Shown piece after piece: positions 2,113 to 54,316 of a stretch of 64,000 nucleotides of DNA. This DNA is from a virus, in IMG/VR virus record IMGVR_UViG_3300033144_003744, positions 1-64,000 of that record; one strand, given 5' to 3'. Positions within the stretch are counted from its first letter, which is position 1. Each line of letters opens with the position of its first letter. Made by a program: the position numbers and the translations under genes. The notes under the pieces were generated by a model. It had not been told where the DNA came from, searched no databases, and saw only the letters and a program-made list of their open reading frames with translations.

Positions 2113-3843
2113 CTAAGTTCTAAAAAATACCTTATCATCAAATTCCTGCTTCTTTCCTTTATTCCACTTCTTAGTTGGTCTGATATAGCCAACAACTCTA
2201 GAATATACCTCTGCTTCATCACAACATCCCTTACCAGCAGTTCTACCATGAGTATTACAAATACTATAAGAAGGACTCCAAGTAACATATGGTAATTGTG
2301 TATTTTCACATGTCTTTTTTATTAGTTCCTTTATACTATTAGTATTACCTAATTCACCAATATCAATATGAAAAACAGTTCCACCAGTAAAATTCTGCTG
2401 TAATAGATTTTGATGTTCTAATGCAGTAACTAAATCAATATCATAGTTCATTGGTATTAATGTAGAACCAGTATAATATACTTCATCCCCTTTACCTTGT
2501 GTAAAAATATCTGGATGTTTCTCTGAATCTATTTTTGCAAAACTATATGATGCTCCTTCTGCTGGTGTTGCTTCATAGTTAAATAAATGTCCAGTTTCAA
2601 CTTGGAATTGATATACTTTATTTTTAATATATTTAGAAACTTCATTACACCATTTTACATTTTCTATAATATCTTGTTCACAAAAATTCATTGAACATTC
2701 ATTCATTCCATTAATTCCCATTGTAAGGAAATAATTCTGGAATAATTTTTGACCAATGTATTCTGATATCATCGGGAAAAGACCATAATCCATACCTTGT
2801 TTAATGTATTCCTTTTTCTGTAAAAGATATTTCTTACCATCATTAAGCATTTGATCAAGTATTCTATAAAATTTTTTTTCATTACCATTACTAATATAAC
2901 CAATTCTTGGTAAATTTATAGTAAAAACGGCAAGACTTCCAGTATTTGATCCTATATTCCAAATGCCACCAGTTACTTTTTGGATTTCAGAAGTATCTAA
3001 TTTAAGTCTACAACACATACTAAGAGAATCATCCTCAGAAAGATCTGTTCCTATGTAATTTGAAAAATATGGACTACCCCATTTGGCTGCTAGGTCGAAA
3101 ATTTTAGTTTCAACTTCGCCGTTCCAATTAAAATCCTTTGTTATATTATAAGTTGGTAATGGAAACGTAAACATTTTTCCATTTCCAGGACCTTCTATCA
3201 TGATATCTAGAAATGCTTTATTAAACAAATCTATTTCATCTTGATAATCAGAATATGTTGTATTTACTAATGATTCTCCACCAATCATTGGAGTTAAATT
3301 TTCATAATATTTTGATGGCCTTAACCCAAACGTTAAATTAGAAAATACAGACTGAAATCCTGGACGTAACGAGAAACTTAAATTCCATATGAATTGCTGT
3401 AATTCTTGTTTTACTTCATCATACGTTAATTTATCTTGGTGAATATATGGGGCTAATAGTATATCTGGGTTAATCCATGCTTGTGCCCCTTGAAATTCTC
3501 CTGTCATTAAAAATGTAAAATTAGTCATCTGATCAATTGCAGTAGTAAAATGTTTTGGTGGTTTTGCCGCTACACTACCAACATTTATTAACCCCTTATG
3601 TAGTAATCTTAATAAATCATTTCCACTACAATATGGAGCATAAATACCACCACTTAAATCATGTAGGTAATATGATCCATCAATATGTTTTTTTCCTATT
3701 GTTCCTAATCTTTTTAATGCATCTTTCGCCATTACGGTTCCTGAAATATGTGATTGTAAACCAGATAAACTTTTTCCTGTATTAGCATTGGATTTTATGC
3801 GCCATGTTGATTCTTCTGTATATTCATTTATTATATTTGTCAT
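2113..3843 (-). CDS. nrdD: Anaerobic (class III) ribonucleoside-triphosphate reductase, no ATP-cone
   Basis: YLHDL, APYC, FTFPLPT, SMCCRL, EATPAEG, TGGTVFH, and C-terminal glycyl-radical motif YSRVVGYIRP. Confidence 0.95.
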   Translation of the reverse strand: MTNIINEYTEESTWRIKSNANTGKSLSGLQSHISGTVMAKDALKRLGTIGKKHIDGSYYLHDLSGGIYAPYCSGNDLLRLLHKGLINVGSVAAKPPKHFTTAIDQMTNFTFLMTGEFQGAQAWINPDILLAPYIHQDKLTYDEVKQELQQFIWNLSFSLRPGFQSVFSNLTFGLRPSKYYENLTPMIGGESLVNTTYSDYQDEIDLFNKAFLDIMIEGPGNGKMFTFPLPTYNITKDFNWNGEVETKIFDLAAKWGSPYFSNYIGTDLSEDDSLSMCCRLKLDTSEIQKVTGGIWNIGSNTGSLAVFTINLPRIGYISNGNEKKFYRILDQMLNDGKKYLLQKKEYIKQGMDYGLFPMISEYIGQKLFQNYFLTMGINGMNECSMNFCEQDIIENVKWCNEVSKYIKNKVYQFQVETGHLFNYEATPAEGASYSFAKIDSEKHPDIFTQGKGDEVYYTGSTLIPMNYDIDLVTALEHQNLLQQNFTGGTVFHIDIGELGNTNSIKELIKKTCENTQLPYVTWSPSYSICNTHGRTAGKGCCDEAEVYSRVVGYIRPTKKWNKGKKQEFDDKVFFRT

Positions 3844-4405: not shown

Positions 4406-4681
4406 TTACCAACCACCCACATGTTTAGTCATTTCTTTAGCTGGATCCCTTGGTACACGCCCAATACCTTCTGCCCCATCATAGGTAACACAAAAATAAA
4501 CCCAATCTCTTGACCATGCAAAAAATGGCCGTCCTTCTGGTGAACCAAATCCAGTATCAAATTCCTTAGATAAAACTCTCAATGCAGATTTTACTTTATT
4601 ACCAAGATACATTTTACCTTCTATGTTTATTGCTTCAAATTTATCATTATATTTTTCTAATTTATCTTTCCAATTTGTCAT
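4406..4681 (-). CDS. Conserved viral hypothetical protein
   Basis: EFDTGFGSPEGRPFFAWS..VYF..YDG...VPRDP resembles a recurrent phage hypothetical family. Confidence 0.5.
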   Translation of the reverse strand: MTNWKDKLEKYNDKFEAINIEGKMYLGNKVKSALRVLSKEFDTGFGSPEGRPFFAWSRDWVYFCVTYDGAEGIGRVPRDPAKEMTKHVGGW

Positions 4682-5095
4682 TTTACACCCCATCTTTCAA
4701 AATTATCTCTAATCATTTGTTCTATTATCTCTAAATCTGTAATTTCATATATACATGGTACATTAGCTACTATACAATCTTTAGTGTCAAATGCTTGTTT
4801 CCATGTGATTATATATTTGTTATTTTTATAATCTATGCTTAAATCCTTTCTTGTATCAAACCATACATCATTTAATGGTTTAAAAAGTTTAATTAAACAT
4901 TTTATTTTTTCTGATGTCATAGTATACCACCAAATCCAAGTCCCATAAAAAATGTTAAAATATAATAAGTATAAAATTTCATAAAACTCATAGATACTTC
5001 CCTATCATTGAATATAATATCATTTTTAAAAATATTATGAAATATAAATAACCCTATTAATGAAATTAGAAAAATAATAACTGAAATATTTATCA

Positions 5096-26361: not shown

Positions 26362-26938
26362 AATGAAAACAAAATCATTTACATTATTTAGTTGTGTAAA
26401 AAATAATAATTATGTAAGTGTTGTTATTTCAATTAAAGAAAATGGGACATTTGCTAGTAAAAATTCAATTAAATTTACAAATTATAAGGGTAAAAAAGAA
26501 TATGATAAACAATATAGATTAAATAATGCACACAAAAGAAAACAATATTATAATAATAATAGAAAAATAATATTAAATAATAAAATAAAATATTATAAAA
26601 TTAATAAAGAAAAAATACTAAATAATGCTAAAAAATACTATATAAATAATAAAGAAAAAATACTTGAAAGGGCAAAACAATATTATAAAAGTACTCCAAA
26701 TAAACATAAATTGTGGGCAAGAAGAAAAAATGCAAAACGTAAAGGATGGGGTATAAATCCAATAAATGAACCATTTGAAAATTGTCATTTTCATCATTTA
26801 CATATAAATGGAGATCATAGTATAGGCATTTATATTCCAATGGATTTACATAAAGGTATATATCATAGTTATAAAAATGAAGAGAGTATGGAAAAGATTA
26901 ATAAAATAGCAATGGATTGGTATGATTTAAATGAGTAA
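26354..26938 (+). CDS. Putative HNH-like endonuclease with K/Y-rich repeats
   Basis: YY..NKEKIL repeats; FHHLHIN...GIYIP.DLH..IYH...M.KINK.A. Confidence 0.7.
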   Translation: MFRMKTKSFTLFSCVKNNNYVSVVISIKENGTFASKNSIKFTNYKGKKEYDKQYRLNNAHKRKQYYNNNRKIILNNKIKYYKINKEKILNNAKKYYINNKEKILERAKQYYKSTPNKHKLWARRKNAKRKGWGINPINEPFENCHFHHLHINGDHSIGIYIPMDLHKGIYHSYKNEESMEKINKIAMDWYDLNE

Positions 26939-27203
26939 ATATAAACAACTAGTAGGAACATGTCCAGAATGTTCTGAAACAACGATGTTCGACGAGAGAT
27001 CAGAAATAATATGTCAGGGCTGTGGACTGGTTATATTCCGACCAGGAAATGATCAGGTAGCTGTATATGTGGGTAACAATACCCCTTTAGTATATGAAAA
27101 AGAAGATTTTAAAATTCCGCATAATATGCATATCTCATCCGTAGCTGAGAGAATAGGATTAGCGATGATTGAACTAAAATATAATAGGGCTGATTTATTC
27201 TAA
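26931..27203 (+). CDS. TFIIB/TFB-type Zn-ribbon protein lacking cyclin folds
   Basis: CPECSETTMFDERSEIICQGCGLVI matches the TFB ribbon consensus. Confidence 0.7.
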   Translation: MSKYKQLVGTCPECSETTMFDERSEIICQGCGLVIFRPGNDQVAVYVGNNTPLVYEKEDFKIPHNMHISSVAERIGLAMIELKYNRADLF

Positions 27204-27380
27204 TCAACCCACTCGTATCCCATTATTTTATCTGTAAATTTTAATAATAAACAAAACTCATATTGGTATACTAGAAAATTATCATATATTTCTAAATGTT
27301 CTATTTTATTATCTTCTAATATTATACACCCAATAGGAATATCATCTATTACAATCTCTTCTCTTTTTCTCTCTATTATT

Positions 27381-27788
27381 TTAGTATCCATTATTTGCAC
27401 ACTTCATATCATTCTTAATTTTCTTTATTTTATTTATACCCTCAATATGATGATGCTGTTCACATGATATTTCTTCTACAATTCTTTCAAATTGTTTAAA
27501 TTGAAATTTTCTACTTCCAGAACAGAACCCATTATAATTTGTAATAAATTCATTAAATCTTAATATATTATTGAGTCCATTAATAATCAATTTATTATCC
27601 TTTACTTTAGATTTTATATCTAGACCTTGTAAGGTCTTAACAATATCAGATATTAATTCTTCTTCTTTTGATACTAGAATGAAACCAATTCCGACTGCAT
27701 GGCCAGAACCGTATTTTTCATTCTTAGTAATATTTACTTGAAAGGAACCTGCTATTTCTATAAGTCCCAATAGCCTAATCGGTTCCAT
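27381..27788 (-). CDS. Single-motif LAGLIDADG-like protein, catalytic acid apparently lost
   Basis: LLGLIEIAGSFQVNI; C-terminal H..IEGINKI..IK..M typical of the family. Confidence 0.65.
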   Translation of the reverse strand: MEPIRLLGLIEIAGSFQVNITKNEKYGSGHAVGIGFILVSKEEELISDIVKTLQGLDIKSKVKDNKLIINGLNNILRFNEFITNYNGFCSGSRKFQFKQFERIVEEISCEQHHHIEGINKIKKIKNDMKCANNGY

Positions 27789-28371
27789 AGTACTTCTCCA
27801 TTATCAAGTTCTGCATATTTTCTGGACTATTAAGAAAATCATTACTATCTTGTACCTCATCCCACAAAGAATCTGTACCATTTTCTGGTTTAACAGATTC
27901 TACTTTCATTTGTTCCTTTGGAACTATAATATTATCATACTTATCTAGAGAATCAATTACATTAATACTAGCATTGATCCTACAGCCACAAGGTGTTGTT
28001 ACCCTAGCATTACTATCTGTGTACTGACCATCACATATTAGAAGGCAGTAGTCTCTGTTGTTAAGTAATGTATTCCTATCCGGTCCAGAAAATGTCCTAC
28101 ATCCATTTGGATGTGAATGTATTAGGCAATTAAATTTTAATGGTATTACTTCGTTAAAACGTACTTGAACTGAAGTGTTTTCCTGATCTGGTATGTATAA
28201 ATCTACTAATTCGTTATCTTCAACAATGCCATAAATTGCTATCTCAATTCCGTGTCGTAACCCATAACGATAAACATCAAAGATTTCTTTATCTAATTCT
28301 TCTGGTATAAATAATTCATACTCTTGATGTGGGCAGTTATCATGTATGTTTTCTTCTAATTTCCAAGTCAT
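27775..28371 (-). CDS. JAB/JAMM (MPN+) metallopeptidase
   Basis: Upstream Glu (EIAIYG), PDQE, exact HxHx7SxxD motif HSHPNGCRTFSGPD. Confidence 0.9.
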   Translation of the reverse strand: MTWKLEENIHDNCPHQEYELFIPEELDKEIFDVYRYGLRHGIEIAIYGIVEDNELVDLYIPDQENTSVQVRFNEVIPLKFNCLIHSHPNGCRTFSGPDRNTLLNNRDYCLLICDGQYTDSNARVTTPCGCRINASINVIDSLDKYDNIIVPKEQMKVESVKPENGTDSLWDEVQDSNDFLNSPENMQNLIMEKYYGTD

Positions 28372-28961
28372 TATTTTATCCTCCTGATATCAAATGAAAC
28401 ACTTACTTTTTCTTCTGTTCCTGATGTAACTAAACCCATAGCGTGTGCAGCTACCATTGTTACTGTGGGAGCACATATTCCAGTGTATGAACTTACATCA
28501 CTGATGTTCCAGGTTGTAGATTTGGGAATCTTATTTGTAATACTATATCTTGTCTCATTAGCCCCAAGTGTCCAGATTGGCTTCTTATCAGCATGTTGCT
28601 GTATAGGTACTTTCATGGGATAATCTATACAATTCATTATTATTCCATTCATCTGAAACACATCATCTGGGTCTTCTATAAATGGATGTTCTATAACTTT
28701 CAATGATCTAAACCTTCTCAATGCTTCTGAACATAATTTAGTCTTCTCTTCTCCTTCTGACCATGCAGGATATGGTAGACGATTCCTATTGTGGTACTCT
28801 AAGGTGTCTCTATCATAAATATGAATCTTGGGTACACCTAAAAGAGCAGCATTATATGCAACCCAGGTTCCTACTCCACCAACTCCCAGTATGTGAATCT
28901 CTTCTGGAATAAAAAGATTCATTGATTCTTGACGATTATACACTCCAAGTTTTTCGCTCAT
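28371..28961 (-). CDS. ThiF/MoeB/E1-like Ubl-activating enzyme
   Basis: YNRQ, ILGVGGVG, YDRDTLEYHNRNRL, K, NCID. Confidence 0.9.
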   Translation of the reverse strand: MSEKLGVYNRQESMNLFIPEEIHILGVGGVGTWVAYNAALLGVPKIHIYDRDTLEYHNRNRLPYPAWSEGEEKTKLCSEALRRFRSLKVIEHPFIEDPDDVFQMNGIIMNCIDYPMKVPIQQHADKKPIWTLGANETRYSITNKIPKSTTWNISDVSSYTGICAPTVTMVAAHAMGLVTSGTEEKVSVSFDIRRIK

Positions 28962-29619
28962 GTGACACACCTCTCTCTTCTTGTGATTTGATTATTTTTC
29001 GTACTTGATTCTGTAATGTTCTGTATGGATATTGTCTATGATACGGTGAATCTAAATTTGCAATACTTACATGTTGTTTTATCCTAGACACCATAAACTC
29101 ATCCACTTTATCTATGTTTAAATTACCAGTACATAATGATCCACAATCAGTACCATCTTGATGAATGTAATTATGAAGTTCCCCATAATATCTAACTGCA
29201 TTACCAGATTCTTTATCAACAGTTATTTTTATAAGACCATGTACATATATTTTTTTAAGATCATCTGGAATAGAATACTTTGTTCCATAACGAACTATAG
29301 TTTTTATTTGTTCATAAATATAAACACTATACTCAATATATCCTTCTGTGATAATATATGGTATTGTTGAATCTTCCATGTTTACAATATGTTCACTGGA
29401 GTTTTTTATATTGTTTAGTTCATATTTCTTTTCATTAATTTTATTATCTAACTTATTAATTTCACTTCCTTGATTCTGCAAAAATACATTAATGGTTCTA
29501 TTTAAGTTAGATATATCAGCTAATTCTGTTCTAAATCCATCAATAAAATTAATAAATTTACTCCTTCTATCTTCAATAGAATTCATAAAATTTACAATAT
29601 CAGTATCTATTCCATTCAT
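28936..29619 (-). CDS. Coiled-coil plus putative prokaryotic E2-like conjugating domain
   Basis: N-terminal heptads; HNYIHQDGTDCGSLCTGN resembles E2 HP..dG.lC.G; downstream ANLDSPY; lies between Ubl and E1. Confidence 0.6.
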   Translation of the reverse strand: MNGIDTDIVNFMNSIEDRRSKFINFIDGFRTELADISNLNRTINVFLQNQGSEINKLDNKINEKKYELNNIKNSSEHIVNMEDSTIPYIITEGYIEYSVYIYEQIKTIVRYGTKYSIPDDLKKIYVHGLIKITVDKESGNAVRYYGELHNYIHQDGTDCGSLCTGNLNIDKVDEFMVSRIKQHVSIANLDSPYHRQYPYRTLQNQVRKIIKSQEERGVSHERKTWSV

Positions 29620-29635
29620 AATCTATCCTCCCGTT

Positions 29636-29663
29636 AAAAAATATATTGGGTGATTAAACCCAA
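29636..29663 (-). terminator. Hairpin plus T-tract overlapping the Ubl stop codon
   Basis: TTGGGT-TTAATC-ACCCAA followed by TATATTTTTT. Confidence 0.55.
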
Positions 29664-29881
29664 CTAGGCTTCTCTGATGTTTCAATTACAATTTCATACC
29701 AATCTGTACCAAGATCTCTAGCTTCATCTTTATCTAATTCGTCCCCATCTATATATACATCAAAACTATTAATACAATTAGCCTTTGCTATATCATATAT
29801 TGTTTCATATGCTGTCTTGTCATCAAAATCTGTTCCCGTTATAATTCCATTTACTGTTACTTTCTTAAAATCTATTTCCAT
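29654..29881 (-). CDS. Putative ubiquitin-like (beta-grasp) modifier
   Basis: 75 aa; beta-beta-alpha-beta(FDVYIDGDEL)-beta(EIVIET) pattern; first gene of the E2-E1-JAB operon; ends KPSWV. Confidence 0.6.
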   Translation of the reverse strand: MEIDFKKVTVNGIITGTDFDDKTAYETIYDIAKANCINSFDVYIDGDELDKDEARDLGTDWYEIVIETSEKPSWV

Positions 29882-29916
29882 TTACTTATGCTCCTTTAAT
29901 TAGGGATAATTCCCAA

Positions 29917-29957
29917 GGGTAGGCATGGAGTTGCACCATGCTAACTCTACTCTACCT
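29917..29957 (-). ncRNA. Mini-tRNA (t-element-like) structure in the Ubl leader
   Basis: GGTAG...GCATGG-TGCAACT-CCATGC-CTACC; begins just downstream of TTAAATATA. Confidence 0.6.
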
Positions 29958-30666
29958 ATATGCGACTGATTATATTTAAGTCTTGGGTTAATTATCCAAC
30001 TACTTCATGACTAACAGATTCACCATTAACTAAAACTTCAACCTTTGGTACATCTGTCATGTCTAATACACTAGCATATCTTGTTTCCCAGAAAATTATG
30101 GTACTATTTATAAAATGTTGATTATCACTTTCAATAATCAAAACATCTCCATCATATGTTGACCATCTGTTTGTGGCTTTATACCTTTTCTGAAAGTGGG
30201 TTTCAATTTTATTACCATATCCATCTGTCCAAGAATTATTATACCAATCTGTAAATCCATGTCTTGTTCTTATTTCCTTAAAACCATTCTTGTTCTTATG
30301 ATATAAATTTTGAGGTATCATTACTAACAATTTATGTGTTATTTCTGTGTCTATTTCTAAAATCATATTCTTATTCTCCTTCCCTTATATTATTCTTTTT
30401 ACATGTAACTATTAAATATGCAACCCATATTAATATTATTTGTTCAATAGCACTACCTAAATGTATTAGATAATTAGCGAATATTACTAAAAATATTACT
30501 AATGTAAATTCTACTATAATCTGTATTATTTTATTAATCATACTATATCCTCCGTTTATCCTATAAAACATTTTATCAAAATTGCCATAATTATAGTCAT
30601 AACCACGGCAAAAGTTACAAATTTATTTGATGCTGGTTGTGATAAATATTTCATTTTAACCTCTTT

Positions 30667-31197
30667 TTATTCTATTTTATTCCCTTTCTCTTGATTACAA
30701 TGTACACACATTGTTTGATAGTTGGACATTATATCCTTACCACCTTTACTCTTTGGGATTATGTGGTCTTTTGTCATCAGAACCTCTTTACCATCTTTAA
30801 GTGCATATAAATTAAAATGTGGTTTATCACTACCCGTAGATTCTATTGTAAAATATTGACCTTCAATGCCGCATTTAACACATACATGACTTCTAAAGAA
30901 TAATTTTAAATTATCTCTATTCATATTTATTGTATGTCCATTGAAATCTACTCTACATTCACCACACATGACTTTATCTAATACTTCATTTAAGGGGTAA
31001 ACTCCAATTCTACCCATGGGTTCATCCATTCTTCCAACAGATTTAAAACCCATGTTAAATCCACGGATAAACATATCTTTATCCTTTACTCTTGGTATTT
31101 GACCATAAGCTTTAATATATCCTTTCTCAAATTCTTTTAGAGCTTTAGTTCTTTTCTTCTTCTGTATGGTTCTAATATGTCCGCTACTTCTTTTCAT
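30667..31197 (-). CDS. HNH endonuclease
   Basis: CVKCG, TKDHIIPKSKGG...NYQTMCVHCNQEKG. Confidence 0.85.
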   Translation of the reverse strand: MKRSSGHIRTIQKKKRTKALKEFEKGYIKAYGQIPRVKDKDMFIRGFNMGFKSVGRMDEPMGRIGVYPLNEVLDKVMCGECRVDFNGHTINMNRDNLKLFFRSHVCVKCGIEGQYFTIESTGSDKPHFNLYALKDGKEVLMTKDHIIPKSKGGKDIMSNYQTMCVHCNQEKGNKIE

Positions 31198-31381: not shown

Positions 31382-32938
31382 TTATTCTATATATTGTTCT
31401 ATCATACCAACTGTATCAATATCTTCTATTCCTTTGTCTGTTCTAAATCCCATAAACTGTGGGAATCTTAAACCTATTTCTCCAGATTCATTTCTCATAA
31501 CTTTCTCAGATTTTACTTCTATTATAATGGGATCTTCCCAACATTTATAGTCTTCTAAAGTTTCATATATTGGATTATTTATTATTCTTTCTGTAATCTG
31601 TCTAAGCTCAGAATGAGTAAATCCACCCCCACATTTACCAACAGATCTCAGGTTAACATTATCAAGTACAGCGATATTAAAGCTACTGAGCATGCTCAGT
31701 TTGTCTCCTGTACCAAATGTAGCTCCAGTTATAACAACATCAAATCTAAGTTCTGTGGGTTTATACTTATACCAATTTCCCCACTCACTTTTCCCCTGAC
31801 CACAATCATATGTGCCTATTGGATTCTTTATCATTACCCCTTCGTAACCAGCTTTTACACATTCTTTATGATATTTTAAAAGTTCATCCTCATTATTAAT
31901 GTATAACTTACCACCAGATAAACCACCACAAACATTAATAAGTGTCTGAGTTCTTTCTTCTTGTGATGCCATAGTCATATCTTCTGGTCCTAACATTAAA
32001 ACATCAAACAATCTAATAGTCACCGGATACTCATCAATATCATCATCAGTAACATCTTCTCTATTCATTCTATGTTGATACTTATTAAATGCCATTGGAC
32101 TACCATCAGGATTTACTCCATATATCTCACCATCGTAAATTCCAGGTTGTATATTCTCTTTCTTTAATAGTTCTACAATATCAGGAAAACTATCTGTCTT
32201 ATCCTTTAATGACCTTGAAAAAATCTGTATTTTACCATCTTCATGGACATGTACTTGTGCCCTGGAACCATCATATTTAGGTTCGGCTAAAACTGGATAC
32301 TCAATTCTATCCATATGTTTTGAAATATCCTTAGCAAGTTGTGGTTTTACAGGGATACCAATTACTAATTCATCAGGTCCACCATTAAGTATTCTAATAA
32401 TGTCTGTCATAGACTCATATTTTTTGTGTAGATTTGACACATATTTATTATCTTCATTATATATCTCAGCTAAAGACCAGGACAATACATTCATGCCTAT
32501 CCTTACTCTGAGTTTATTAAGAAGGATATTAATAAAATATTTCTTTTCAAGATCATTCATTATAACCAAATTATAATGTAATTCATATTCCTTTTGTTTT
32601 GTTTTAATGCCTAAATTTTTAAATAGTTTATATATGGTAATAAGTTGTAAATCTACACCACTATTACTATTAATATCTAATTCACCAGAAAACATATCAC
32701 CTAATGTTTCATATTTTTTAGACTTATCATAATCATAATATGTATCAATAACCTTTTGAACAGTTCTTTTACTATATCCCACAGCCTCATTTTCCAAGGG
32801 TTTGCCCAACATAAAATTGCAAGCAATAATCTGATCCTCTGGACTAAGATTAGAAAGATAATCTGCTATCTGTCCTCTGGCCTCCTTTGGATTTTTCATG
32901 TTTTCTAAAAGGTTGTATAGTGTTTTGAATTTATTCAT
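31382..32938 (-). CDS. lig: ATP-dependent DNA ligase
   Basis: PQLA, EPKYDGSR, DGEI, FDVL, EGVMIK, WYKYK, LRFPQF..FR.DK. Confidence 0.95.
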   Translation of the reverse strand: MNKFKTLYNLLENMKNPKEARGQIADYLSNLSPEDQIIACNFMLGKPLENEAVGYSKRTVQKVIDTYYDYDKSKKYETLGDMFSGELDINSNSGVDLQLITIYKLFKNLGIKTKQKEYELHYNLVIMNDLEKKYFINILLNKLRVRIGMNVLSWSLAEIYNEDNKYVSNLHKKYESMTDIIRILNGGPDELVIGIPVKPQLAKDISKHMDRIEYPVLAEPKYDGSRAQVHVHEDGKIQIFSRSLKDKTDSFPDIVELLKKENIQPGIYDGEIYGVNPDGSPMAFNKYQHRMNREDVTDDDIDEYPVTIRLFDVLMLGPEDMTMASQEERTQTLINVCGGLSGGKLYINNEDELLKYHKECVKAGYEGVMIKNPIGTYDCGQGKSEWGNWYKYKPTELRFDVVITGATFGTGDKLSMLSSFNIAVLDNVNLRSVGKCGGGFTHSELRQITERIINNPIYETLEDYKCWEDPIIIEVKSEKVMRNESGEIGLRFPQFMGFRTDKGIEDIDTVGMIEQYIE

Positions 32939-53074: not shown

Positions 53075-54316
53075 ATGAATTTATTAAAAAAATTACCAGA
53101 CTCATATATAGTAGGTGGAGCAGTAAGAGATACTATCATGGGTAGAAATCCAAAAGATATTGATATAGTAACTTCAATGCTTCCAGAGGATGTATTAAAG
53201 AATTTTGACTCTCATCCATTGGGTCAGAAATTTGGTACAGTTGTAGTAAGAGACGATATCGGTGAAGTAGAAGTCACTACAATGCGTAAAGATTTGACAG
53301 GTGGTAGACATCCAGTAGTTGAGTTTACTGATAAAATTAGAGAAGATTTATCCAGAAGAGATTTTAGAATGAATGCAATGGCTATGAATGAATATGGTAG
53401 AATTATTGATCCATTTAAGGGTCAGCAGGATATTATAAACAAACGTATTTCTAGTGTTGAAGATCCTTTAATCACTGTACACCCAATACACGGGGATCCA
53501 CTGAGAGTACTTAGAGCAATTAGATTTTCTATTATTTTAGATTTTGATATTGAACAAGAATTACAAGTAGCAATAATGGATTCCGATCTTTCTACTTTAT
53601 CTGGAGAAAGAATATACTCTGAACTCAAGCAGATGTTTAGTGAGCCTGAGGAAGCCATGAGAGCTTTATATTTCTACAATGTATTGTCCAAGGTACTACC
53701 GGAGGTAGATGATTTATCATGGTGTGTACAGAGTGTTCAGTGGCACCCTGAGGGAGATGCATTAGAGCACACCATTCTTGTAATGGAAAGAGTAAAGGAA
53801 CATGGTCCATTAGCTGTAATGGCCGCTATGTTACATGATATAGGTAAACCTGTAACCAGGGAAGGAATGACCTATCATGGCCATGCAAAAGCTGGAGTAG
53901 AAATTGCAGAATCTATTATGAGAAGATTGGGTAGACCTAAAATTGAAGTTGAAGCTGTTAAATTTGTAGTAGAAAATCATATGAAAATTAAAGAAATAGA
54001 AAATATGAAAGTATCTAAATGTAGAAAATTATATGATAGTCCACATTTTGATTTGCTTATGTTGATTGCCAGGGCTGATAATGCAGATAAACATAATGAT
54101 TCTATGTTTGAATTTATTGAACAAGATAATTTAGTTAAAGAAATTAATATTGAACCTTTGCTTGATGGATATGATCTAATAGATTTAGGTCTAAATGGTT
54201 CTGATATTGGTAATGTTCAAAAAATATTAAAAGAATTACAATTAGAAAAAATTATTAGAACTAAAACTGAAGCTATTAGTTATGTAAATATATTTAAATA
54301 TTTAGGTGGTGAATAA
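53075..54316 (+). CDS. cca: Class II (bacterial-type) CCA-adding tRNA nucleotidyltransferase with HD domain
   Basis: VGGAVRD, DID, EVTTMR, DL.RRDF..NAMA, DPLRVLRAIRF, ERI..E, HPEGD..EH, LHDIGKP. Confidence 0.9.
   Translation: MNLLKKLPDSYIVGGAVRDTIMGRNPKDIDIVTSMLPEDVLKNFDSHPLGQKFGTVVVRDDIGEVEVTTMRKDLTGGRHPVVEFTDKIREDLSRRDFRMNAMAMNEYGRIIDPFKGQQDIINKRISSVEDPLITVHPIHGDPLRVLRAIRFSIILDFDIEQELQVAIMDSDLSTLSGERIYSELKQMFSEPEEAMRALYFYNVLSKVLPEVDDLSWCVQSVQWHPEGDALEHTILVMERVKEHGPLAVMAAMLHDIGKPVTREGMTYHGHAKAGVEIAESIMRRLGRPKIEVEAVKFVVENHMKIKEIENMKVSKCRKLYDSPHFDLLMLIARADNADKHNDSMFEFIEQDNLVKEINIEPLLDGYDLIDLGLNGSDIGNVQKILKELQLEKIIRTKTEAISYVNIFKYLGGE

What the first reader, a model, noticed from the sequence alone, without database searches (positions are those of the whole stretch)
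29654..29700. The putative Ubl has no C-terminal glycine (ends ...ETSEKPSWV)
Seen: the tail reads AAG CCT AGT TGG GTT TAA, with Ser where a Gly would be expected and a two-residue WV extension. Known: E1 enzymes normally adenylate a C-terminal Gly, often exposed by JAB trimming. Inference: either JAB removes WV and a Ser terminus is activated (non-canonical chemistry), or this is a one-base GGT>AGT variant or inactive allele. The E1 also lacks the usual Zn-binding CxxC pairs.
Basis: partly seen in the sequence, partly recalled or inferred. Interest (0 to 1): 0.7.

Follow-up and report, generated by a model that had tools for sequence, protein, structure and literature searches.

The report
Viral ubiquitin-like tag without terminal glycine
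A tailed virus of unknown host carries a small probable ubiquitin-like tag gene next to activating, carrier-like and trimming enzyme genes, and in this virus and all five known relatives the tag's tail lacks the usual glycine and keeps a fixed motif ending in serine or alanine.

Summary
The 75-aa ORF at 29654-29881 (-) ends ...ETSEKPSWV, with no Gly in its last 17 residues, and the adjacent 196-aa ThiF-type E1 has no CxxC.

It is not an assembly error or a dead allele. The whole family found in about 5.8 and 1.8 billion-protein libraries is six sequences. TSEKP is invariant in 6 of 6. The next residue is Ser in 5 and Ala in 1, never Gly. What follows varies: WV, GV, SWV or nothing.

This pattern fits a pro-modifier whose 0-3-residue extension is removed, probably by the operon's JAB peptidase (intact HxHx7Sx2D). 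The result would be a Pro-Ser or Pro-Ala terminus for adenylation. An Ala terminus has a published precedent in type II CBASS; a Ser terminus does not.

Weak points:
- The beta-grasp fold and the E2 identity rest on low-confidence models and motifs.
- One relative lacks the JAB gene at the matching position.
- No biochemistry exists.
- The WV codons also form the 5' arm of a terminator-like hairpin.

I class it as a new variant of a known kind. Unchecked notes of this scan report glycine-less tags in other phage Ubl cassettes on other DNA.

The parts
29654..29881 (-). 75-aa putative ubiquitin-like (ThiS-like) modifier gene, stop codon included
   Evidence: ORF with an AAGGAG SD. Five homologues exist, at 44-79% identity. 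The AF2 secondary-structure order is strand(s)-helix-strand-strand-short helix-strand, but mean pLDDT is only 53.5. No Pfam ThiS match at E<=10.
29657..29680 (-). Tail codons T68-V75: invariant TSEKP, then Ser73 (Ala in one relative), then the variable extension Trp74-Val75
   Evidence: Codon table, six-sequence alignment A5, conservation statistics.
29635..29664 (-). Terminator-like hairpin (7-bp stem, 6-nt loop) and T-tract between the Ubl and E2-like genes. Its 5' arm is made of the last two bases of the Ser73 codon, the Trp74 codon and the first two bases of the Val75 codon; the third Val base and the stop codon lie in the loop
   Evidence: Consensus scan: 2 terminator-like sites in 27300-30500 against 0.8 +/- 1.0 in shuffles. 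The stem also appears in the MFE and centroid folds, but the 76-nt fold as a whole is not unusual, z = -0.32.
28936..29619 (-). 227-aa protein: N-terminal coiled-coil-like part plus a C-terminal domain with a candidate E2-like active-site loop (His, Gly, invariant Cys163 in SLCTGNL) and NLDSPY
   Evidence: GGGAGG SD. 44% identical partial homologue in L002 with the same motifs. No Pfam, PADLOC, NCBIfam or PDB sequence match. The Atlas feature search gave only a lead to Prok-E2_D (score 0.89, family on 44% of cluster members). The AF2 model is unusable, pLDDT 41.
28371..28961 (-). 196-aa minimal E1 / ThiF-family adenylyltransferase (a GTG at 28970 would add 3 residues). It overlaps the E2-like gene by 26 nt
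   Evidence: Pfam ThiF 3.5e-12, 46.4 bits against a cut-off of 28.1. The PDB profile search hits ThiF-type proteins, PaaA, UBA5, TcdA, SAE2, MccB and BubCD. PADLOC Cap2 E1-E2 models reach 2e-6. GVGGVG is at 26-31. There is no CxxC, and the only Cys invariant in 4 of 4 homologues is C77.
27775..28371 (-). 198-aa JAB/JAMM metallopeptidase. Its start overlaps the E1 stop by 1 nt
   Evidence: Exact HxHx7Sx2D at residues 85-98. Pfam Prok-JAB matches on that stretch, but under the cut-off (E 0.014, 15.7 against 25 bits).
29882..29998 (-).
   Evidence: Consensus match only, 10 of 12. Promoter-like sites are not enriched in the region: 16 found against 22.6 +/- 4.8 in shuffles. Sequence read.

Best explanation
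The 75-aa protein is the pro-form of a virus-encoded, ThiS-like ubiquitin-fold modifier whose reactive end is not glycine. The mature tail is ...TSEKP-Ser (or -Ala in the most distant relative). The residues after it (WV here; GV, SWV or none in relatives) are a dispensable extension. This extension is clipped off, most likely by the JAB peptidase of the same operon, as BilC clips one residue from BilA. The minimal 196-aa E1 then adenylates the Ser/Ala carboxylate. Because this E1 family has no conserved cysteine in the stretch where I recall the crossover loop to lie, the activated tag probably passes directly to the invariant cysteine of the neighbouring E2-like protein, or via an invariant Tyr-Thr, and from there to a target amine. 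Shown: gene order, E1 family membership, the JAB active-site motif, and the conservation pattern of the tail. Inferred: the beta-grasp fold, the E2 identity, the cleavage site, activation, transfer and the targets.
For: (1) Tail pattern in all 6 family members: TSEKP invariant in 6 of 6; next residue Ser in 5 of 6 and Ala in 1 of 6; then WV (3), GV (1), SWV (1) or nothing (1). P0008, at 44% identity, ends exactly at the Ser/Ala position. (2) The tail is as conserved as the core: 0 of 11 changes in columns 63-73 against 16-17 of 62 upstream in the four homologues at 77-79% identity. (3) Context: the E2-like, E1 and JAB genes overlap by 26 nt and 1 nt and follow the small gene behind one 34-nt spacer. 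The E1 is a true ThiF-family member and the JAB has the full HxHx7Sx2D motif. (4) Linkage elsewhere: the E2-like and E1 genes are again adjacent in L002. Ubl P0010 and E1 P0005 both list a longest contig of 5103 bases, which suggests one contig; this is an inference. (5) Published precedents. The JAB peptidase BilC removes a single C-terminal Ala to expose the reactive residue, and uncleaved BilA is not conjugated (PMC10557695, passages). In type II CBASS the E1-activated C-terminus is Gly or Ala across 1,583 cGAS sequences, and E. cloacae cGAS ends in Ala (PMC10097602, passages). Bub E1s work without a catalytic cysteine (PMC11601596, passages and section 9). (6) The predicted secondary-structure order of the small protein matches my recollection of ThiS/MoaD (the comparison itself is recalled).
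Against: No sequence method places the 75-aa protein in a Ubl family: Pfam ThiS gave no match at E<=10 and the PDB profile search gave nothing relevant. Its AF2 model is poor (pLDDT 53.5) and the fold searches are at noise level. The E2 assignment rests on a motif in two sequences and a weak Atlas lead. In E. coli cGAS, mutating the terminal Gly to Ser abolished thioester formation and conjugation (PMC10097602), so a Ser terminus needs a differently shaped E1 pocket, and Pro next to the terminus is unusual. In the relative L002 (E1 65% identical) the two ORFs after the E1 gene do not resemble the JAB, so the JAB is not a fixed member of the cassette. The WV codons are also part of a terminator-like hairpin, which could explain their presence at the RNA level. 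The family is tiny and its five closest members are not independent of one another.
Confidence: 0.45

Rival explanations
1. No trimming. The E1 adenylates whatever residue is last (Val75 here, Ala in P0008), and the tail length is simply flexible.
For: The last residue is always small and aliphatic: Val in 5 of 6 and Ala in 1 of 6. The JAB gene is missing at the matching place in L002. JAB enzymes can serve only for deconjugation.
Against: The distance from the last strand to the terminus would vary by up to 5 residues among close relatives. The residue before Val is Trp or Gly, which is hardly a recognition motif, while conservation stops exactly after position 73. Val at the terminus was not accepted by Cap2 (PMC10097602).
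Confidence: 0.15
2. The small protein is not a covalently conjugated modifier. It is a non-covalent partner or regulator whose conserved tail is a docking peptide, or it is unrelated to the E1, which would act on another carboxylate as the E1-like enzymes TcdA, PaaA and MccB do.
For: There is no Ubl family match and no confident fold. The E1 profile hits PaaA, TcdA and MccB about as well as it hits true Ubl E1s. A terminator-like hairpin separates the small gene from the three enzyme genes.
Against: A strongly conserved, probably unstructured C-terminal tail next to E1, E2-like and JAB genes is the signature of a substrate of that machinery. The E1 lacks the extra peptide-clamp domains that I recall for MccB and PaaA: it is 196 aa, against matched chains of 348-381 aa.
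Confidence: 0.2
3. It is a sulfur-carrier system of the ThiS/ThiF, CysO/Mec+ or QbsE/QbsD kind. The E1 makes an acyl-adenylate that is turned into a thiocarboxylate for a viral thiolation step, the JAB matures the carrier, and the 227-aa protein is not an E2.
For: The best NCBIfam matches of the E1 are ThiS adenylyltransferase models. The E1 has no conserved catalytic Cys. The E2 identity is unproven. I recall that JAB trimming of a two-residue extension is known for QbsE/QbsD.
Against: The E1 scores far below the ThiF equivalog cut-off (46 against 159 bits). Neither the Pfam scan of seven proteins from 27381-31197 nor the scans of 20 other window proteins returned a rhodanese, cysteine desulfurase or sulfurtransferase family; smaller ORFs and bases 64001-86903 were not scanned. 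Known sulfur carriers end in Gly-Gly (PMC1779556, passages), so this reading does not explain the tail either.
Confidence: 0.1
4. A programmed +1 frameshift near the end of the gene yields a product that ends in Thr-Gly-Gly, restoring a canonical terminus.
For: The +1 frame is open from about codon 66 and reads ...LVGFNHPIYFLTGG-stop, ending 3 nt before the E2-like start codon. The site GUU-UAA resembles, from recall, the XUU-stop slip site of prfB, and a hairpin lies there.
Against: The Gly-Gly codons are simply the GGGAGGA Shine-Dalgarno of the next gene. My rough estimate of chance is about 0.1 (one reading frame in three, times an open 16-codon run in 31% G+C DNA). There is no SD-like stimulator upstream of the site. 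The product would carry 10 to about 16 more residues than the frame-0 protein, depending on where the shift occurs, far longer than any Ubl tail I know. The frame-0 tail is conserved at the protein level in 6 of 6.
Confidence: 0.03
5. Sequencing or assembly error, or a decaying pseudogene.
For: None found. Read support could not be examined.
Against: The same Ser occurs in 5 of 5 homologues at 77-100% identity, from different assemblies and sources (Logan, ENA), and Ala in the sixth. Gly occurs in 0 of 6. The tail is the best-conserved part of the protein after the first strands.
Confidence: 0.02

Closest known systems
BilABCD (bacterial ISG15-like) ubiquitination operons (Chambers et al., PMC10557695)
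   Same: The gene set is the same: a small Ubl, a separate E2, a separate JAB peptidase and an E1. There the JAB pre-processes the Ubl by removing a very short C-terminal extension (one Ala), and the unprocessed Ubl is not conjugated (passages).
   Different: BilA exposes a Gly. BilD is a large IAD-AAD-CYS E1 with a catalytic Cys and a Zn site. Here the E1 is a single 196-aa adenylation domain with no conserved Cys and no CxxC. No PADLOC model matched the Ubl, E2-like or JAB proteins, and the only PADLOC matches of the E1 are E1-E2 (Cap2-type) models. The element is viral, not a host defence island.
Type II CBASS Cap2 (E1-E2) / Cap3 (JAB) conjugation of CD-NTases (Jenson et al., PMC10097602; Ledvina et al. 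preprint 10.1101/2022.03.31.486616)
   Same: It is the only characterised E1 system I read about in which a non-glycine residue (Ala) is a natural activated C-terminus. Its penultimate residue is variable, and a JAB cleaves exactly after the terminal residue. The window's E1 hits the PADLOC Cap2 models at about 2e-6.
   Different: The substrate there is a 400-aa nucleotidyltransferase, not a small beta-grasp protein. E1 and E2 are fused. Ser at the terminus was inactive in the system tested. Here Ser is the majority residue and the residue before it is an invariant Pro.
Bub (6E/DUF6527) operons (Ye et al., PMC11601596)
   Same: The E1 is a minimal homodimer-type adenylation domain without a catalytic cysteine. 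An invariant Tyr sits in its crossover loop, and the peptidase exposes the Ubl terminus. The window's E1 family likewise has an invariant Tyr159-Thr160 just before the GI[C/A]AP stretch, and BubCD is among its PDB hits (2e-4).
   Different: The Bub peptidase is fused to the E1. The Bub E2 uses Ser where this E2-like protein keeps a Cys (2 of 2 sequences). The Bub Ubl ends in Gly after cleavage. I did not look for a DUF6527 protein.
ThiS/ThiF and MoaD/MoeB sulfur-carrier pairs; JAB-processed carriers (CysO/Mec+, QbsE/QbsD: recalled)
   Same: A small carrier of about 70 aa with a strand-turn-strand start containing NG. The short ThiF model is the best full-length match of the E1. From recall, a JAB removes two residues from QbsE.
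   Different: Those carriers end in Gly-Gly (PMC1779556). The E1 is far below the ThiF equivalog cut-off. An E2-like gene is present and no sulfur-transfer gene was seen.
Virus-encoded E1-like genes: Asgard virus Nidhogg (10.1101/2021.07.29.454249) and the crAss-like phage ThiF / metalloprotease cassette (for example Kolpuevirus OQ198718.1)
   Same: Viruses of prokaryotes carrying ThiF/E1-like genes (passages). The annotated crAss-like locus has a metalloprotease-domain gene next to a ThiF-like gene.
   Different: Nidhogg is described with E1 homologues only, thought to use host Ubl systems. The crAss-like proteins are much larger (338-aa ThiF, 426-aa protease) and barely similar: 30% identity over 66 residues, E = 0.3.

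Membership tests
Ubiquitin-like beta-grasp modifiers (ThiS/MoaD/Ub superfamily) | Beta-grasp fold | tested here: inconclusive
   The AF2 secondary-structure order fits, but mean pLDDT is 53.5. Foldseek found no match at E<=0.001. VIA-align best Z was 4.1; about 12 of the 50 listed rows are Ubl, SUMO/Smt3 or PB1 domains by title, all below the tool's noise level.
Ubiquitin-like beta-grasp modifiers (ThiS/MoaD/Ub superfamily) | Sequence match to a Ubl family model | tested here: not met
   Pfam ThiS PF02597 had no match in the genome at E<=10, while it rang in 13 of 14 control genomes. A Pfam scan of all 6 members listed no Ubl family. The PDB profile search gave only archease at E 0.19.
Ubiquitin-like beta-grasp modifiers (ThiS/MoaD/Ub superfamily) | C-terminal Gly or Gly-Gly at or near the end of the tail | tested here: not met
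   No Gly after G58 in the window protein. The family position is Ser in 5 of 6 and Ala in 1 of 6. A single member (P0010) has Gly one residue further on.
Ubiquitin-like beta-grasp modifiers (ThiS/MoaD/Ub superfamily) | Encoded beside its E1-type adenylyltransferase | tested here: met
   The Ubl gene lies 692 nt upstream of the E1 start in one co-oriented cluster. Likely the same linkage in the P0010/P0005 contig (inference).
E1 / ThiF-MoeB adenylyltransferase family | ThiF Rossmann-type adenylation domain with a GxGxxG nucleotide loop | tested here: met
   Pfam ThiF at 46.4 bits against a cut-off of 28.1. GVGGVG at 26-31. 48 PDB E1-type sequences at E<=0.01.
E1 / ThiF-MoeB adenylyltransferase family | Two CxxC pairs binding structural Zn (MoeB/ThiF type) | tested here: not met
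   No CxxC in the window protein. No conserved Cys pair in the 4 homologues.
E1 / ThiF-MoeB adenylyltransferase family | Conserved catalytic Cys in or near the crossover loop (Ubl-conjugating E1s) | tested here: not met
   The only invariant Cys is C77, which lies before the catalytic Asp region. C163 is Ala in P0005 and P0009. The position of the crossover loop is taken from recalled MoeB/ThiF motifs, not from a structure.
BilABCD | [quoted passage not shown] | tested here: not met
   Single domain, 196 aa. The feature is as described in PMC11601596 and PMC10557695.
BilABCD | E2 (BilB) with a catalytic Cys in a UBC-like fold | tested here: inconclusive
   Cys163 is invariant in 2 of 2 sequences, with an upstream His. 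No family or PDB hit. Model pLDDT 41. Atlas lead to Prok-E2_D at 0.89 only.
JAB/JAMM (MPN+) metallopeptidases | HxHx7Sx2D zinc site with an upstream Glu | tested here: met
   The motif is exact at residues 85-98 and Glu43 is a candidate upstream Glu (read from the sequence). The Pfam Prok-JAB match covers the motif but is under the cut-off, 15.7 against 25 bits.
Type II CBASS (Cap2/Cap3) | Fused E2-E1 protein acting on a CD-NTase | tested here: not met
   E2-like and E1 are separate genes. The PADLOC matches cover only the E1 part of the Cap2 models. No nucleotidyltransferase lies in the cluster.
Bub (6E/DUF6527) | JAB-E1 fusion, an E2 with catalytic Ser, a DUF6527 protein | tested here: not met
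   JAB and E1 are separate genes. The E2-like protein keeps a Cys at the candidate site. DUF6527 was not listed for any of the seven proteins of 27381-31197 scanned against Pfam at E<=1.

The most novel reading that the evidence does not exclude
A virus-encoded, orthogonal ubiquitin-like tagging system whose tag is activated at a Pro-Ser (or Pro-Ala) carboxy-terminus rather than at glycine. The activating enzyme is a stripped-down E1 with no catalytic cysteine that hands the acyl-adenylate straight to an E2-like cysteine. Because the linkage would not be Gly-Lys, host Gly-Gly-specific isopeptidases and host E1s would not cross-react. The virus could then tag host or virion proteins in a way the cell cannot undo.
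Probability: 0.3. Interest if true: 0.8.

Novelty: new variant of a known kind. Interest (0 to 1): 0.6.

Why it matters
Nearly every Ubl activated by an E1 ends in glycine, because the tail must thread under the crossover loop into the adenylation site. The one natural exception I could document is the Ala terminus of some CBASS cGAS enzymes. A conserved Ser/Ala terminus preceded by an invariant Pro, paired with a 196-aa E1 that lacks both the Zn site and a catalytic Cys, would widen the known chemistry of E1 enzymes. It would give a four-gene, roughly 2.1-kb minimal system to study. It would also show that viruses of prokaryotes carry their own tagging machinery, rather than only being targets of the host's Bil or CBASS systems. 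It is directly testable with four small recombinant proteins.

Tried and rejected
Assembly error or inactive allele: rejected on the homologues.

Similarity between the Ubl tail (S-W-V) and the E2-like C-terminus (W-S-V here, W-R-V in L002): rejected as a shared signal. The E2-like tail is encoded in the 26-nt overlap with the E1 start, where the E1 residues L-G-V-Y are conserved.

Searches that found nothing:
- blastn of 27700-30400 and tblastn of the Ubl against 50,697 phage records.
- tblastn of E1 P0007 against the phage records.
- tblastn of the window E1 gave only 11 weak partial matches, best 8e-4.
- The search for related loci in viral contigs with the E1, with alignment A2 and with P0008.
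- The search for related loci in genome contigs with P0008 and with A2.
- The metagenome scan gave one 1501-base locus that does not reach the Ubl gene.
As a result I could not see the DNA of any Ubl homologue. I could not test whether having a JAB goes with having an extension, whether the hairpin co-varies, or whether the +1-frame GG end is conserved.

Sequencing runs: none was listed for 27700-30000 and no RNA holder was listed. Read support was therefore not checked and read laying was not used.

Complex prediction (two E1 copies from A2, one Ubl from A3, ATP and Mg): no verdict. Run scores were 0.02, 0.55 and 0.14, median 0.14 against a mark of 0.32, and the controls were not folded. It counts neither way.

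Structure: both AF2 jobs gave low-confidence models. Foldseek and VIA-align on the Ubl model stayed at noise level. The E2-like model was too poor to search with. The Atlas's own model of the E2-like protein gave only TM <= 0.42 matches to unrelated families.

Literature: I searched for PDB code 9EGB, the top E1 hit, and found only unrelated papers. The searches returned no paper in the held library that describes this family, a Ubl activated at a C-terminal Ser, or a phage Ubl without glycine. One search's two hits are UFM1 reviews that I saw only in the listing.

Host: not settled. TerL and portal genes show a tailed virus, and the best TerL match is 26% identical, to Bacteroides phages. A TFIIB-type Zn ribbon scores 27.5 bits, under its cut-off of 29, and the DNA ligase has three domains; both hint at an archaeal host. 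The CCA-adding/poly(A) polymerase head with an HD domain is, from recall, the bacterial type. The label 'archaeal virus' in a sister note is therefore untested.

Other small ORFs of the 86.9-kb genome with GG near the end (6 listed; two read) do not look like Ubls.
Full report
WHAT IS THERE. The window is bases 1-64000 of an 86,903-base virus record with 114-base direct terminal repeats and 30.6% G+C. Terminase and portal genes show that it is a tailed virus. Its host is unknown.

On the minus strand, 27775-29881 holds four co-oriented genes:
- a 75-aa ORF (29654-29881);
- a 227-aa ORF (28936-29619);
- a 196-aa ORF (28371-28961);
- a 198-aa ORF (27775-28371).
The last three overlap, by 26 nt and 1 nt. 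The first is separated from the second by 34 nt.

Its glycines are G12, G16, G46 and G58 only.

THE NEIGHBOURS. The 196-aa protein is a ThiF/E1-family adenylyltransferase.
- Pfam ThiF scores 46.4 bits against a cut-off of 28.1.
- A profile of four homologues hits 48 PDB sequences at E<=0.01: ThiF-type proteins, PaaA, UBA5, TcdA, SUMO/NEDD8/Ub E1s, MccB and BubCD.
- The Cap2 E1-E2 models of PADLOC reach about 2e-6.
- Its best full-length match is a short, 215-position ThiF model, matched over residues 4-181 but far below that model's cut-off (46 against 159 bits).
- It has GVGGVG and no CxxC.
- Across four homologues the only invariant Cys is C77. C163, in the stretch GI[C/A]AP, is Ala in two sequences.
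- From my recollection of MoeB/ThiF motifs, the stretch before GI[C/A]AP is the crossover loop. It contains an invariant Tyr159-Thr160 and no Cys. That is reminiscent of Bub E1s, whose only invariant crossover-loop residue is a catalytic Tyr (PMC11601596).

The 198-aa protein has an exact JAMM motif, HxHx7Sx2D, at residues 85-98. It also has a sub-threshold Prok-JAB match on that stretch.

The 227-aa protein has no family match in Pfam, PHROGs (one weak hit, function unknown), PADLOC, NCBIfam or the PDB. Its 44%-identical partial homologue in metagenome locus L002 conserves a His, a Gly, the block SLCTGNL with Cys163, and NLDSPY. An Atlas feature search gave only a lead to Prok-E2_D (score 0.89; the family is carried by 44% of that cluster's members). 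I therefore call it E2-like, not an E2.

IS THE 75-aa PROTEIN A UBL? No sequence method says so. The AF2 model built from three sequences has a mean pLDDT of 53.5. Its order of elements is strand(s) 6-14, helix 24-34, strand 40-44, a short strand, helix 51-55, strand 60-68. That is what I recall for ThiS/MoaD, as are the VTVNG start and the G-x-D...EIV pattern before the tail; both comparisons are recalled, not tested. The fold searches stayed at noise level. Foldseek found nothing at E<=0.001. VIA-align gave a best Z of 4.1, and about 12 of its 50 listed rows are Ubl, SUMO or PB1 domains by title. The Ubl reading is thus carried mainly by gene context and by the behaviour of the tail.

THE TAIL IN RELATIVES. 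This is the key result. A word-indexed search of about 5.8 billion proteins and an exhaustive profile search of 1.84 billion cluster representatives found a family of only four clusters, six sequences in all. They are aligned.
- TSEKP is invariant in 6 of 6.
- The next residue is Ser in 5 and Ala in 1, and Gly in none.
- After it come WV (3 sequences), GV (1), SWV (1) or nothing (1).
- The sequence with nothing after it is P0008, 44% identical, which ends ...TSEKPA.
- TSEKP is the second-longest invariant run in the alignment.
- The four homologues at 77-79% identity have 0 of 11 changes in columns 63-73 against 16-17 of 62 upstream.
- A label shuffle gives p = 0.0065 for those five columns all being invariant.

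The glycine-less tail is therefore a conserved property of the family, not an error or a dead allele. Conservation stops exactly after position 73.

MECHANISM PROPOSED. A fixed core followed by a short, variable or absent extension is the signature of a pro-modifier. There are close published precedents.
- The JAB peptidase BilC removes a single C-terminal Ala from BilA to expose the reactive residue, and BilA that keeps this Ala is not conjugated (PMC10557695, passages).
- In type II CBASS the E1-activated C-terminus is Gly or Ala across 1,583 cGAS sequences. The Ala-ended E. cloacae enzyme is conjugated, and its C-terminus was seen as an AMP adduct in the Cap2 active site. The G-to-A mutant is tolerated (PMC10097602 and preprint 10.1101/2022.03.31.486616, passages).

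I therefore propose this sequence of steps. The JAB, or another peptidase, trims WV. The E1 adenylates Ser73. The acyl-adenylate is attacked by the E2-like Cys163, directly or via Tyr159. The tag then goes to a target amine.

Against this proposal:
- In the same CBASS work, G-to-S, V, R or W abolished activity.
- A penultimate Pro is unusual.
- In L002, whose E1 is 65% identical, the two ORFs after the E1 gene are not JAB-like.

AN RNA-LEVEL COMPLICATION. The last two bases of the Ser73 codon, the Trp74 codon and the first two bases of the Val75 codon form the 5' arm of a 7-bp terminator-like hairpin, with the third Val base and the stop codon in its loop. A T-tract follows (29664-29645 and beyond). 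It is one of 2 such sites in 27300-30500, against 0.8 +/- 1.0 in shuffles. The stem also appears in the centroid fold. The WV extension may therefore exist partly because the coding end overlaps an attenuator that would let the tag out-express its enzymes. This is compatible with trimming, and it fits the observation that these residues are free to vary.

A CURIOSITY. The +1 frame is open from about codon 66 and ends ...L-T-G-G-stop, 3 nt before the E2-like ATG. The two Gly codons are the GGGAGGA Shine-Dalgarno of the next gene. By my rough estimate this arrangement arises by chance about one time in ten. I rate a frameshift product at about 3%.

COMPARISON WITH KNOWN SYSTEMS. In gene content this works like a Bil operon: Ubl, E2, JAB, E1. 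It is not a member, because BilD-type E1s have IAD-AAD-CYS domains and BilA exposes a Gly. It shares the cysteine-less minimal E1 with Bub, but not the JAB-E1 fusion or the serine E2. It shares a non-glycine terminus only with type II CBASS, whose substrate and fused E1-E2 are different.

Among viruses, the passages I read describe only E1-like genes in Asgard viruses. CrAss-like phages have a ThiF gene beside a metalloprotease-domain gene, with barely detectable similarity to this E1. Four literature searches returned no description of this family or of a Ser-terminated Ubl in the held library.

Unchecked notes of this scan report glycine-less tags in other phage Ubl cassettes on other DNA, with ends such as K-S-A, N-A, S-N and D-D-N-S. 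If those notes hold, this case is one example of a wider and undescribed habit of viral Ubl systems.

VERDICT. The error or inactive-allele reading is rejected. The trimmed-pro-Ubl, Ser/Ala-terminus reading is the best supported, at about 45%, but rests on comparative evidence from six sequences. I class it as a new variant of a known kind, with interest 0.6.

Noticed in passing
window 29620-29690 (-): In the +1 frame the end of the Ubl gene and the spacer read ...LVGFNHPIYFLTGG-stop, ending 3 nt before the E2-like ATG. The Gly-Gly codons are the next gene's Shine-Dalgarno (GGGAGGA). This is probably chance, but it would give a canonical GG end after a +1 shift.
   Followed up: partly
window 28936-28970 (-) and L002 465-487: The E2-like protein ends W-S-V here and W-R-V in L002, which resembles the Ubl's S-W-V end. 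These residues are encoded in the overlap with the conserved E1 N-terminus (L-G-V-Y), so the likeness is forced by overlapping reading frames.
   Followed up: yes
window 27381-27788 (-) and 30667-31197 (-): A LAGLIDADG endonuclease gene (Pfam 6e-06) overlaps the end of the JAB gene, and an HNH endonuclease gene (Pfam 5e-13) lies about 800 nt upstream of the Ubl gene. The cassette thus sits between homing-endonuclease-type genes. In the relative L002 the JAB position is occupied by unrelated small ORFs.
   Followed up: partly
window 26931-27203 (+), 31382-32938 (-), 53075-54316 (+): Host signals are mixed. A 90-aa protein has a TFIIB-type Zn ribbon (27.5 bits, just under the cut-off) and the ATP-dependent DNA ligase has three domains, but there is also a poly(A)-polymerase-head/HD CCA-adding-type enzyme. 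The 'archaeal virus' label used in sister notes is not established.
   Followed up: partly
window 4406-4693 (-): A 95-aa ORF just upstream of the anaerobic ribonucleotide reductase gene (2113-3843) ends ...KHVGGW. It did not look like a Ubl on reading and was not searched.
   Followed up: no
L003 (GenBank OQ198718.1, Kolpuevirus, 64653-71850): This crAss-like phage has adjacent genes annotated as a 388-aa hypothetical protein, a 426-aa metalloprotease-domain protein and a 338-aa 'thiamine biosynthesis' (ThiF) protein. It may be a larger viral E1/peptidase cassette, only marginally similar to this one (E = 0.3).
   Followed up: no
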